From Escherichia coli O127:H6 str. E2348/69 (GTDB lineage: Bacteria; Pseudomonadota; Gammaproteobacteria; Enterobacterales; Enterobacteriaceae), in the NCBI RefSeq assembly GCF_000026545.1, contig NC_011601.1: a stretch of DNA of 64,000 nt. The stretch is one strand, 5' to 3'. Positions within the stretch are counted from its first letter, which is position 1. Every line of letters starts with the position of its first letter. Below are positions 15,001 to 18,000 of the stretch, one piece after another. Made by a program: the position numbers.

Positions 15001-18000
15001 GATCGCCCGGAGCTGGAGGTACATTATCAGTTCCTCGAAAGCGATGATTTCAGTTTCGGTCTGACTGGTGGTTTCCGTAATTATGGTTATCACTACGTTG
15101 ATGAACCGGGTAAAGACACGGCGAATATGCAGCGCTGGAAAATTGCGCCAGACTGGGATGTGAAACTGACTGACGATTTACGTTTCAACGGTTGGCTGTC
15201 GATGTATAAATTTGCCAACGATCTGAATACGACCGGTTATGCTGATACCCGTGTCGAAACGGAAACAGGTCTGCAATATACCTTCAACGAAACGGTTGCC
15301 TTGCGAGTGAACTATTATCTCGAGCGTGGTTTCAATATGGATGATAGCCGCAATAACGGTGAGTTTTCCACGCAAGAAATTCGCGCCTATTTGCCGCTGA
15401 CGCTCGGCAACCACTCGGTGACGCCGTATACGCGCATTGGGCTGGATCGCTGGAGTAACTGGGACTGGCAGGATGATATTGAACGTGAAGGCCATGATTT
15501 TAACCGTGTGGGTTTATTTTACGGTTATGATTTCCAGAATGGTCTTTCCGTTTCGCTGGAATACGCGTTTGAGTGGCAGGATCACGACGAAGGCGACAGC
15601 GATAAATTCCATTATGCGGGTGTTGGGGGGAATTACTCGTTCTGATAATGTGCTAAATTGCCGGATGCGGGGCGAGCACCAAATCCGGCATACATTTATT
15701 TCAACGACATATGCGTAGCAACGGTAATATTTTGTGGTGACGGTTTTCCGGCAATTAGCTGGAATAATAACTCGCAGCTTTGTTGACCTAACTCCTGCGT
15801 CGGAACATCGATGCCGCCTGGTGCAGGCGTTAATATAAACGACAGCGTTTCATTACTATAACCCACCACCGCTAACTGCTGCGGAATAGCAATGTTTTTC
15901 TCTGCCGCCGCACGATAAATACTCATTAATTTCAGACTGTCAGTAGCAAACACTGCCTCAGGCAACGGTGACTGGCTTAATAATTCCCGTGCTGCTTTTA
16001 ATGCTGTCTCATGGGTATAACCGCCGTCAACAATCCATTCATCACGCACTGCAATATTATGCGTAGCCAGGCTTTGCTTATAACCATTTACCCGATCCAC
16101 TGAAACATGAACATCAAGCGGCGCATGCAGGCAGGCAATATTCTTATGCCCGCTTTCAATTAACGCATCGGTTAGCGCAATACTGTCGCCATAATTATCG
16201 GTATCGACGGAATAAACATGGCTGTATTGACCTTCAACTTTACCGATCACCACCACCGGGATCTCGTATTTGTCGAGTTGTGCAAAGAAGGATTCATCAG
16301 CAGGCGAACTTAGCATAATAATGCCTTTAATCATTTTCTGCTTAATTTTGCTTTCGCATTTTTGCAGATCTTCTGCCGGATTGTGCGATGTTTGTAATAT
16401 CACGTCGAAACCTTCTTCTTCCGCTTTGGCGGTGATGGCATGCAAAACTTCAGAGAAAAACGGATTACCCGCCGTAGTTTTGGTCGAACGGGTAGAAATC
16501 ACCATAATGGCATCAAAACCCGAAGAGGTCAGCGCGCGGGCCAGCTTGTTTGGTTGATACTGTAATTCTTCAATGGCCCGTAACACTTTTTCGCGCGCTT
16601 CCGGGGAGATATTGGTTTGCTTATTCAGCACGCGTGATACGGTGGATTTTGATACGCCTGCAACCCTGGCAATATCATAAATAGTAGGGGACATAGGTCA
16701 GGAACTCCGTCCGAACGTGAATGCTGCACATCTTATGGAGTTCGCCCGTCGATGACAACACGGGTAGTTGATAATCAATGGCCTGGCCCCCACATTCATA
16801 TCCTTACGAACGATTTTTTTTTCTGGTCTTCAGAGCAGCACAGGACAGCAATGAAGCGACTTAAAAATGAACTCAATGCGCTGGTGAATCGGGGTGTCGA
16901 CAGACATCTGCGCCTCGCTGTAACCGGACTTAGCCGCAGCGGCAAAACAGCGTTTATCACCGCGATGGTTAATCAGTTGCTCAATATTCATGCCGGAGCA
17001 CGTTTGCCGCTATTAAGTGCGGTGCGTGAAGAGCGCCTGCTGGGCGTAAAACGCATTCCCCAGCGTGACTTTGGCATTCCGCGCTTCACCTATGATGAAG
17101 GGTTGGCGCAGTTATATGGCGATCCTCCCGCCTGGCCGACGCCTACGCGCGGCGTCAGTGAAATTCGCCTGGCGTTACGTTTTAAATCGAACGATTCGCT
17201 GCTGCGCCACTTTAAGGATACCTCCACGCTGTATCTGGAGATTGTGGATTACCCCGGCGAATGGTTGCTCGACCTGCCGATGCTGGCGCAGGACTATTTA
17301 AGCTGGTCGCGCCAGATGACGGGCTTACTCAATGGTCAGCGCGGCGAATGGTCGGCGAAATGGCGAATGATGTGCGAAGGGCTGGACCCGCTAGCGCCTG
17401 CCGACGAAAACCGGCTGGCAGACATTGCCGCCGCGTGGACCGATTATCTCCATCACTGCAAACAGCAGGGGCTGCACTTTATTCAGCCAGGACGCTTTGT
17501 TTTGCCTGGCGATATGGCAGGAGCGCCCGCGCTGCAATTCTTCCCATGGCCAGATGTCGATGCCTGGGGCGAGTCCAAACTGGCGCAGGCCGATAAGCAC
17601 ACCAATGCCGGAATGTTGCGCGAGCGGTTTAATTATTACTGCGAGAAAGTGGTGAAGGGGTTCTATAAGAATCATTTTCTGCGCTTTGACCGCCAGATTG
17701 TGCTGGTGGATTGCCTGCAACCTCTCAACAGTGGGCCACAGGCATTTAATGATATGCGTCTGGCGCTGACGCAGCTGATGCAAAGTTTCCACTACGGGCA
17801 GCGTACCCTGTTCCGGCGTTTGTTTTCGCCGGTTATCGATAAGCTATTGTTTGCTGCCACTAAAGCGGACCATGTGACCATCGATCAGCACGCTAATATG
17901 GTTTCATTGCTGCAACAACTGATTCAGGATGCCTGGCAAAATGCGGCGTTCGAAGGGATCAGCATGGACTGTCTGGGGCTGGCGTCTGTTCAGGCGACCA

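What the first reader, a model, noticed from the sequence alone, without database searches (positions are those of the whole stretch)
16768..16796. Sigma32-like promoter elements upstream of ycjX
TTGATAA and CCCCCACATT with 12-bp spacing resemble the heat-shock promoter consensus. I recall ycjX-ycjF being part of the sigma32 regulon. The site is also divergent from ycjW, so heat shock might influence the ycj operon repressor.
Basis: partly seen in the sequence, partly recalled or inferred. Interest (0 to 1): 0.3.

Follow-up and report, generated by a model that had tools for sequence, protein, structure and literature searches.

The report
Known heat-shock promoter of ycjX

Summary
The window is the E. 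coli E2348/69 chromosome. In standard register this reads GTTGATA-N14-CCCCACAT, 3 mismatches to CTTGAAA-N11-15-CCCCATnT.

Window-wide the match is no better than chance. It ranks 2nd of 128,000 positions on a matrix of 15 other sigma-32 promoters, within the range of real ones.

Independent evidence settles it:
- A published cap-selected long-read dataset puts the start of the ycjX-ycjF and ycjX-ycjF-tyrR transcripts at window 16803. That is 8 nt after the -10 element, the same geometry as dnaK P1.
- Two published ChIP-chip datasets read here show sigma-32 at this locus; in the heat-shock one the signal equals dnaK's.
- ycjX and ycjF are early heat-induced.
- The promoter is listed in RegulonDB (Nonaka 2006).
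- The elements are identical in five divergent E. coli alleles. They recur 43-55 nt upstream of ycjX in many Enterobacteriaceae genera, whatever gene lies upstream.

Verdict: real, correctly interpreted, already known. Low interest.

The parts
16767..16773 (+). It lies at -36 to -30 relative to the mapped start.
   Evidence: sequence. TTGATAA is invariant across Escherichia, Citrobacter and Enterobacter. It matches CTTGAAA at 5 of 7 positions.
16774..16787 (+). 14-nt spacer between the 7-mer and the 8-mer. dnaK P1 has 13.
   Evidence: The training promoters have spacers of 13 (nine), 14 (four) and 11 (two).
16788..16796 (+). Sigma-32 -10 element CCCCACATT. CCCCACAT occupies -15 to -8; the one departure from the consensus is T to C at -10.
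   Evidence: The geometry is the same as CCCCATTT at -15 to -8 in the dnaKp1 scaffold.
16803..16803 (+). Transcription start of ycjX-ycjF and ycjX-ycjF-tyrR mRNAs (K-12 NC_000913.3 position 1384070).
   Evidence: SMRT-Cappable-seq Supplementary Data 2 of PMC6131387. Coordinates were mapped through L002 and alignment A1.
16803..16850 (+). 48-nt 5' untranslated region. It contains a T9 run (16815-16823), a conserved CTTCAG block and the AGGA ribosome-binding site.
   Evidence: No significant fold and no Rfam match.
16851..18248 (+). ycjX, 465 aa, DUF463 / YcjX-family GTP-binding protein.
18245..19306 (+). ycjF, 353 aa, DUF697 inner-membrane protein. Its start overlaps the end of ycjX by 4 nt.
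19454..20995 (+). tyrR, the distal gene of the longer transcript variant. It also has its own promoters.
16730..16758 (-). ycjW sigma-70-type promoter TTGTCA-17-TAAGAT, with its start at 16722. It sits back-to-back with the ycjX promoter; the two -35 elements are 9 bp apart.
   Evidence: scan. The start at v2 1382013 / v3 1383989 appears in two datasets.
16649..16678 (+). Secondary sigma-70-type promoter TTGATA-18-TATCAT inside ycjW, reading toward ycjX. Its start is at 16686; a further start lies near 16651.
   Evidence: Cho 2014 starts at v2 1381977 (211 reads) and 1381942. Yan 2018 start at 1383917.

Best explanation
This is ycjXp, the sigma-32 (RpoH) promoter of the ycjX-ycjF(-tyrR) transcription unit.

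Proposed mechanism: RNA polymerase carrying sigma-32 recognises GTTGATA through sigma region 4 and CCCCACAT through regions 2 and 3, across a 14-bp spacer. It opens the DNA and starts transcription at window 16803, giving an mRNA with a 48-nt leader. When sigma-32 rises after heat or protein-misfolding stress, occupancy and transcription increase. This raises the level of the YcjX GTPase and its membrane partner YcjF.

Basis of each step:
- Shown here: the motif match, the geometry relative to the start, and the conservation.
- Inferred from the family: the specific sigma-DNA contacts.
For: 1. Locus identity: the window is 100% identical to E. coli E2348/69 over ycjW-ycjX-ycjF-tyrR. The promoter is identical in K-12.
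2. Start site: a cap-selected full-length transcript start lies at K-12 1384070, which is window 16803, for both ycjX-ycjF and ycjX-ycjF-tyrR. CCCCACAT then lies at -15 to -8, exactly as CCCCATTT does in dnaKp1.
3. Occupancy: sigma-32 ChIP-chip 5 min after heat shock, minus the 30 C control, gives a signal of 2.9 at ycjX, equal to dnaK. Cho 2014 independently reports sigma-32 region SigH_134 over the spacer.
4. Induction and database record: ycjX and ycjF are early heat-responsive. RegulonDB, citing Nonaka 2006, assigns a sigma-32 promoter and the ycjX-ycjF-tyrR unit.
5. Motif quality: the matrix score is 15.1 bits, rank 2 of 128,000 positions, comparable to fxsA, htpX and ybeZ.
6. Conservation: both elements are invariant in five sampled E. 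coli alleles, including one only 88% identical. In 27 Enterobacteriaceae sequences (26 fetched loci plus this window), 11 have a site with 3 or fewer mismatches in the zone where the -10 element ends 35-80 nt before the ATG. Only 0.43% of 7,005 background windows do. This holds whether the upstream gene is ycjW, pspE or pspD.
Against: - The motif is statistically unremarkable across the whole window.
- It departs from the consensus at the conserved T of CCCCAT. Its spacer is 1 nt longer than the commonest spacing.
- Cho 2014's start-site list, which includes a heat-shock sample, has no start at 16803. It lists only upstream starts at 16686 and 16651. That dataset is shallow (dnaK P1 has 103 reads, htpG 29) and discards starts below 40% of the strongest one.
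- The cap-selected start was measured in unstressed M9 and rich cultures, so it does not by itself prove sigma-32 dependence.
- Nonaka 2006 and Zhao 2005 could not be read here.
- ChIP-chip resolution cannot separate this promoter from the one 115 bp upstream.
Confidence: 0.92

Rival explanations
1. Shared promoter. The same DNA is also used by the housekeeping sigma-70 (TTGATA, 17 bp, CACATT). Sigma-70 would supply basal expression at 37 C, with sigma-32 adding the heat response.
For: - TTGATA matches the sigma-70 -35 hexamer at 5 of 6 positions. CACATT keeps the key A2 and T6 with a 17-bp spacer.
- The 16803 start was seen in unstressed M9 and rich cultures.
- A sigma-70 ChIP region covers the spacer.
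- In strains with pspE upstream, the C-run is shortened and the site reads TTGATA-16-CATTAT, which is more sigma-70-like.
Against: - The sigma-70 scan did not call it: the -10 matches only 3 of 6.
- The sigma-70 ChIP region is explained by the ycjW promoter and the promoter inside ycjW.
- Basal sigma-32 activity at 37 C also explains an unstressed start, as it does for dnaK and groE.
- This rival adds to the main explanation and does not replace it.
Confidence: 0.2
2. Chance motif. The heat response of ycjX would come from another promoter, for example the one inside ycjW that starts at 16686, and the resemblance here would be coincidental.
For: - About 2 sites of equal score are expected per 64 kb by chance.
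- Cho 2014's heat-shock sample lists 16686, not 16803.
- ChIP-chip cannot resolve two promoters 115 bp apart.
Against: - A capped start sits at exactly the sigma-32 distance from the motif.
- The 16686 promoter is a good sigma-70 match (10 of 12) with no CCCCAT-like element.
- The motif and its distance to the ATG are conserved across genera with unrelated upstream DNA.
Confidence: 0.03
3. Coupling to ycjW. Heat-induced loading of sigma-32 polymerase would alter expression of the divergent repressor gene ycjW, and through it the ycj sugar operon.
For: The two promoters are back-to-back. Their starts are 81 bp apart and their -35 elements 9 bp apart, so polymerase footprints of roughly -55 to +20 would overlap upstream.
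Against: - The ycjW start is detected in all four conditions, heat included.
- ycjW, ycjM and ompG are not mentioned among heat-responsive genes in PMC7572479.
- No sigma-32 motif faces ycjW.
- The adjacency arose secondarily: several relatives have pspE or pspD upstream of the same promoter.
Confidence: 0.05

Closest known systems
ycjXp, the sigma-32 promoter of ycjX-ycjF-tyrR in E. coli K-12 (RegulonDB; Nonaka et al. 2006, Genes Dev 20:1776)
   Same: It is the same element. The promoter region from the -35 through the start site is base-for-base identical between K-12 and this strain, with the same genes and the same transcription unit.
   Different: Nothing in the promoter itself differs. 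In the aligned stretch, E2348/69 differs from K-12 by three SNPs outside the elements and by one extra T in the leader T-run.
dnaK P1, the reference sigma-32 promoter used for the cryo-EM open complex (PMC10216364)
   Same: Two-block architecture, with the C-rich -10 element at -15 to -8 and the start 8 nt after it.
   Different: - The ycjX -35 is GTTGATA against CTTGATG.
- The spacer is 14 against 13.
- The -10 has C instead of T at position -10.
- The matrix score is 15.1 bits against 20.2 bits (leave-one-out) for dnaK.
psp-linked ycjXF of Yersinia, Serratia and other Enterobacterales (Darwin 2005 and Huvet et al. 2011, as quoted in PMC3041696)
   Same: The same ycjX-ycjF gene pair lies downstream of pspABC(D).
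   Different: In those genera ycjX abuts pspD or pspC with a gap of about 7-15 nt, and no sigma-32-like site is found. Expression there is presumably from the PspF/sigma-54 psp promoter (inference). In Escherichia, Citrobacter, Enterobacter, Pluralibacter and others there is a spacer of 60 nt or more carrying the sigma-32 site.

Membership tests
Sigma-32 (RpoH) dependent promoter | -35 element resembling CTTGAA(A) | tested here: met
   GTTGATA matches at 5 of 7 positions, with the TTGA core intact. TTGATAA is invariant in 8 Escherichia, Citrobacter and Enterobacter sequences.
Sigma-32 (RpoH) dependent promoter | C-rich -10 element CCCCATnT | tested here: met
   CCCCACAT matches 6 of 7 specified bases. 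The mismatch is T to C at -10. Orthologues in other genera carry perfect CCCCATGT or CCCCATCT.
Sigma-32 (RpoH) dependent promoter | Spacer of 11-15 bp between CTTGAAA and CCCCATnT (13-14 in most real promoters) | tested here: met
   The spacer is 14 bp. The published range is given. The 15 K-12 training promoters have spacers of 13 (nine), 14 (four) and 11 (two).
Sigma-32 (RpoH) dependent promoter | Transcription start about 8 nt downstream of the -10 8-mer | tested here: met
   The published capped start at 1384070 maps to window 16803, 8 nt after CCCCACAT. This is the same distance as in dnaKp1.
Sigma-32 (RpoH) dependent promoter | Sigma-32 occupancy in vivo that rises with heat shock | tested here: met
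   From published data read here, not a new experiment. The ChIP-chip signal is 2.9 after heat shock with the control subtracted, and region SigH_134 covers the spacer. The resolution is a few hundred bp.
Sigma-32 (RpoH) dependent promoter | Downstream genes induced by heat or by sigma-32 | tested here: met
   From published data. ycjX and ycjF are early heat-responsive. They are listed among the targets found in the expression studies by Nonaka 2006 and Zhao 2005, per Table 2 of PMC2996942. The primary papers are not held.
Sigma-32 (RpoH) dependent promoter | Start at this site requires sigma-32 (in vitro transcription with the holoenzyme; loss on rpoH depletion; promoter point mutants) | not testable with these tools
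   This needs wet-lab work. Nonaka 2006 may contain 5' RACE data but could not be read.
Sigma-32 (RpoH) dependent promoter | Score within the range of validated promoters on an independent matrix | tested here: met
   15.1 bits against a leave-one-out range of 11.9-27.3 bits for 15 known promoters; rank 2 of 128,000 positions.
Sigma-70 promoter (dual use) | TTGACA, 16-18 bp, TATAAT, with at least 9 of 12 matches | tested here: inconclusive
   TTGATA (5 of 6), 17 bp, CACATT (3 of 6) gives 8 of 12, below the scan threshold. Sigma-70 ChIP covers the region, but two other sigma-70 promoters lie within it.
RNA thermometer in the leader (fourU / ROSE type) | A stable, conserved hairpin that sequesters the ribosome-binding site | tested here: not met
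   Leader folds of the window and 16 orthologues have z-scores from -1.0 to +1.6. There is no Rfam match up to E=1. The CUUCA/UGAAG pairing shows no covariation.

The most novel reading that the evidence does not exclude
The back-to-back layout is functional. After heat shock, sigma-32 polymerase loading at ycjXp would interfere with polymerase at the ycjW promoter; the two -35 elements are only 9 bp apart. That would lower the YcjW repressor and partly derepress the ycj sugar operon, which others have linked to pspE-dependent H2S production. A better supported but less novel reading is that Enterobacteriaceae uncoupled ycjXF from the sigma-54/PspF-driven psp operon by acquiring this sigma-32 promoter. 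The promoter then survived insertion of the roughly 14-kb ycj island right at its -35 edge.
Probability: 0.05. Interest if true: 0.4.

Novelty: already known. Interest (0 to 1): 0.08.

Why it matters
This promoter places the poorly understood YcjX GTPase and its membrane partner YcjF in the core heat-shock response. That fact has been in the literature and in RegulonDB since 2006, so nothing changes for the field.

The comparative result is a modest addition. Across 80 species, ycjXF sits directly behind the phage-shock (psp) genes. A sigma-32-type site with conserved spacing to the ATG appears in Escherichia, Citrobacter, Enterobacter and their close relatives among the loci that have a real spacer there. 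It persists whether pspD, pspE or ycjW lies upstream. This speaks to a question left open by Huvet et al. 2011 about how ycjXF relates to the Psp system. The check also shows that a sequence-only reader can identify an alternative-sigma promoter correctly.

Tried and rejected
- Primary papers: Nonaka 2006, Koo 2009 and Thomason 2015 are not held.
- Text searches: 'ycjXp' and the promoter sequence itself found nothing relevant.
- Other start-site supplements: Mendoza-Vargas 2009 and Ettwiller 2016 contained nothing for this locus; Ettwiller's held files had no entry at these coordinates.
- Cho 2014: its start list lacks the 16803 start. I attribute this to low depth and the 40% filter, not to absence.
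- Consensus mismatch counting as a significance test: it shows no enrichment, so I built a weight matrix from 15 known promoters. The best sites for miaA and yrfG were poor and were left out.
- RNA thermometer or other structured leader: rejected.
- YcjW operator in the spacer: none is reported by ChIP-seq, and no inverted repeat of 8 bp or more is present.
- Terminator scan of ycjF through tyrR (19250-21150): no + strand terminator-like site, so nothing explains the two transcript lengths.

Full report
**Locus.** A 1-kb query around the finding is 100% identical to E. coli E2348/69 (EPEC O127:H6) and is present in 5,416 of 5,426 complete E. coli genomes. The annotation gives ompG, ycjW (- strand, 15696-16694), ycjX (16851-18248), ycjF (18245-19306), tyrR (19454-20995) and tpx. 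ycjW is a LacI-family regulator. YcjX is DUF463 (annotated as a YcjX-family GTP-binding protein) and YcjF is DUF697.

**Observation.** The consensus quoted in the literature is CTTGAAA[11-15]CCCCATnT, with CTTGAA at -35 to -30. In that register the site is GTTGATA-N14-CCCCACAT, with 3 mismatches out of 14 specified bases.

**Is the match more than chance?**
- By mismatch counting, no. There are 13 sites with 3 or fewer mismatches in the window, against 26 +/- 6 in shuffles.
- I then fetched 17 classic K-12 heat-shock genes and recovered recognisable sigma-32 sites for 15 of them. From these I built a weight matrix with a spacer term.
- The ycjX site, which was not in the training set, scores 15.1 bits. 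That is rank 2 of 128,000 positions and lies inside the leave-one-out range of true promoters (11.9-27.3 bits; fxsA 15.8, htpX 15.5, ybeZ 13.9).
- Shuffled windows still give about 1.9 sites of that score. The motif alone therefore proves nothing window-wide.
- For the pre-specified spacer and strand, my estimate from the same shuffles is about 0.002 expected sites.
- Of the 12 distinct consensus-level sites, this one lies in an intergenic spacer facing a gene; ten others map inside annotated genes, and the site at 7255 lies outside the stretch I annotated.

**Transcription start.** The promoter is identical in K-12, so K-12 data transfer directly.
- SMRT-Cappable-seq (Yan et al. 2018, Supplementary Data 2) lists operons b1321|b1322 and b1321|b1322|b1323, both starting at NC_000913.3 position 1384070 on the forward strand.
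- Through locus L002 and alignment A1, this position is window 16803.
- CCCCACAT therefore lies at -15 to -8 and GTTGAT at -36 to -31. In the dnaKp1 scaffold used for the sigma-32 open-complex structure, CCCCATTT lies at -15 to -8 and CTTGAA at -35 to -30.
- The same dataset and Cho et al. 2014 agree on a ycjW start at window 16722 (- strand). It comes from TTGTCA-17-TAAGAT.

**Sigma-32 dependence.** This rests on published data read here.
- Waldminghaus and Skarstad 2010 performed sigma-32 ChIP-chip 5 min after heat shock and subtracted unshocked controls. Their value at ycjX is 2.9, tied with dnaK for the highest in their Table 2. That table is restricted to targets also found by Wade 2006 and by the expression studies of Nonaka 2006 and Zhao 2005.
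- Cho 2014 reports sigma-32 region SigH_134 across the spacer.
- A chemostat heat time course names ycjX and ycjF among the early-responsive genes.
- Huvet et al. 2011 quote RegulonDB and Nonaka 2006 for a sigma-32 promoter at ycjX and an experimentally verified ycjX-ycjF-tyrR unit.

**The discordant dataset.** Cho 2014's start-site table, which includes a heat-shock sample, lists only + strand starts at window 16686 (211 reads) and 16651 (25 reads). These come from a sigma-70-like TTGATA-18-TATCAT promoter inside ycjW. Two features of that dataset explain the gap. It keeps only starts with at least 40% of the strongest signal. It is also shallow: dnaK P1 has 103 reads and htpG 29. I treat this as a sensitivity limit, not a contradiction.

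**Conservation within E. coli.**
- The ycjW-ycjX spacer is found in 5,042 genomes.
- In K-12, O157:H7, WCHEC035125 and the most divergent allele sampled (WL297, 88% identity), GTTGATAA and GGCCCCCACATT are unchanged. The spacer, the flanks and the leader T-run do vary.

**Conservation across species.**
- A scan for YcjX returned 80 loci from Escherichia to Vibrio, Aeromonas and Pasteurellaceae.
- The common order is pspF / pspABC(D)(E) - ycjX - ycjF - tyrR.
- The ycjM...ompG-ycjW cluster is therefore an insertion between pspE and ycjX in most E. coli, in Enterobacter cloacae, in an Enterobacter MAG (L006), and in Superficieibacter and Siccibacter. E. albertii and one E. coli lineage have pspE directly upstream. 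Two Citrobacter species have pspE between ycjW and ycjX.
- Despite these different neighbours, TTGATAA is invariant in all eight Escherichia, Citrobacter and Enterobacter sequences aligned.
- Other genera carry equal or better sites at the same distance from the ATG. Pluralibacter has CTTGCAA-13-CCCCATGT and Enterobacter sp. BIGb0383 has CTTGACA-14-CCCCATGT.
- Of 27 Enterobacteriaceae sequences (26 fetched loci plus this window), 11 have a site with 3 or fewer mismatches in the zone where the -10 element ends 35-80 nt before the ATG. Only 0.43% of 7,005 background windows do. The sequences are phylogenetically related, so this is a footprint and not a probability.
- In Yersinia, Serratia, Rahnella and Pantoea stewartii (L039), ycjX abuts pspD and no such site exists. 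This is consistent with co-transcription with psp there (inference).

**The ycjW aside.** The two promoters are back-to-back, with starts 81 bp apart. Three observations argue against coupling. The ycjW start is seen in all four conditions. YcjW ChIP-seq peaks lie at ycjM and ycjT/U only. ycjW and its operon are not mentioned in the heat time-course paper. Coupling is unsupported but not excluded.

**Other checks.** The 48-nt leader has no significant structure and no Rfam match. A conserved CTTCAG block complementary to AUGAAG shows no covariation.

**Conclusion.** The finding is real and correctly interpreted, and it is the already catalogued ycjXp sigma-32 promoter. A minor possibility is that sigma-70 also uses it (TTGATA-17-CACATT). 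Novelty: already known. Interest: low.

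Noticed in passing
window 16649-16722: A sigma-70-like promoter inside ycjW (TTGATA-18-TATCAT) gives + strand starts at 16686 and about 16651. 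These run toward ycjX and converge head-on with the ycjW start at 16722 on the - strand. The two 5' ends therefore overlap by about 37 nt, which could allow transcriptional interference or antisense pairing.
   Followed up: partly
window 1236-16766; loci L003, L004, L030, L058: The roughly 14-kb ycjM...ompG-ycjW sugar cluster behaves as an insertion between pspE and the ycjX promoter. Its right edge appears to lie at or just upstream of the -35 element. About 370 of the 5,416 E. coli genomes with ycjX lack this ycjW-ycjX spacer. E. albertii and one E. coli lineage have pspE plus a hairpin directly upstream. Two Citrobacter species have pspE between ycjW and ycjX.
   Followed up: partly
window 16815-16823: The T-run in the ycjX leader varies in length between strains: T9 here, T8 in K-12, T7 in O157:H7 and T6 in WL297. 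WL297 also lacks 10 nt just upstream of the ATG.
   Followed up: partly
window 16828-16856: A CTTCAG(G)GCA block about 20-27 nt upstream of the ATG is conserved in roughly ten genera and is complementary to the AUGAAG start region. Folding is not significant and there is no covariation, so it remains unexplained.
   Followed up: partly
window 16768-16778: TTGAT-A-ATCAA is a small palindrome overlapping the -35 element. It is kept in Enterobacter (ATTGATAATCAAC) and, as TTTGAT-AA-ATCAAA, in E. albertii. It could be a regulator site or simply coincidence.
   Followed up: no
window 52550-52578 (- strand): A sigma-32-like site, GTTGATG-13-CGCCATAAC (11.4 bits), ends about 76 nt upstream of the ldhA start (52474). 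ldhA is a published sigma-32 target, and hslJ lies just downstream of it.
   Followed up: no
window 48339-48367 (- strand): The best sigma-32 matrix score in the window (CTGGAAA-13-CCCAATGTA, 15.9 bits) lies inside nifJ (ydbK) on the sense strand. It may be a chance hit or one of the debated intragenic sigma-32 sites.
   Followed up: no
window ~12400-12943 and 58073-59446: There are two ISEc13 (IS4-like) copies. One interrupts the ycj operon just upstream of ycjU/pgmB, next to a truncated ORF. The other lies between azoR and pdxI. The paa cluster is reduced to paaY plus a paaX fragment.
   Followed up: no
window 13613-14695: ycjV is an intact 360-aa ABC ATPase gene in this strain. In K-12 it is annotated as a pseudogene (ycjV/ymjB).
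   Followed up: no
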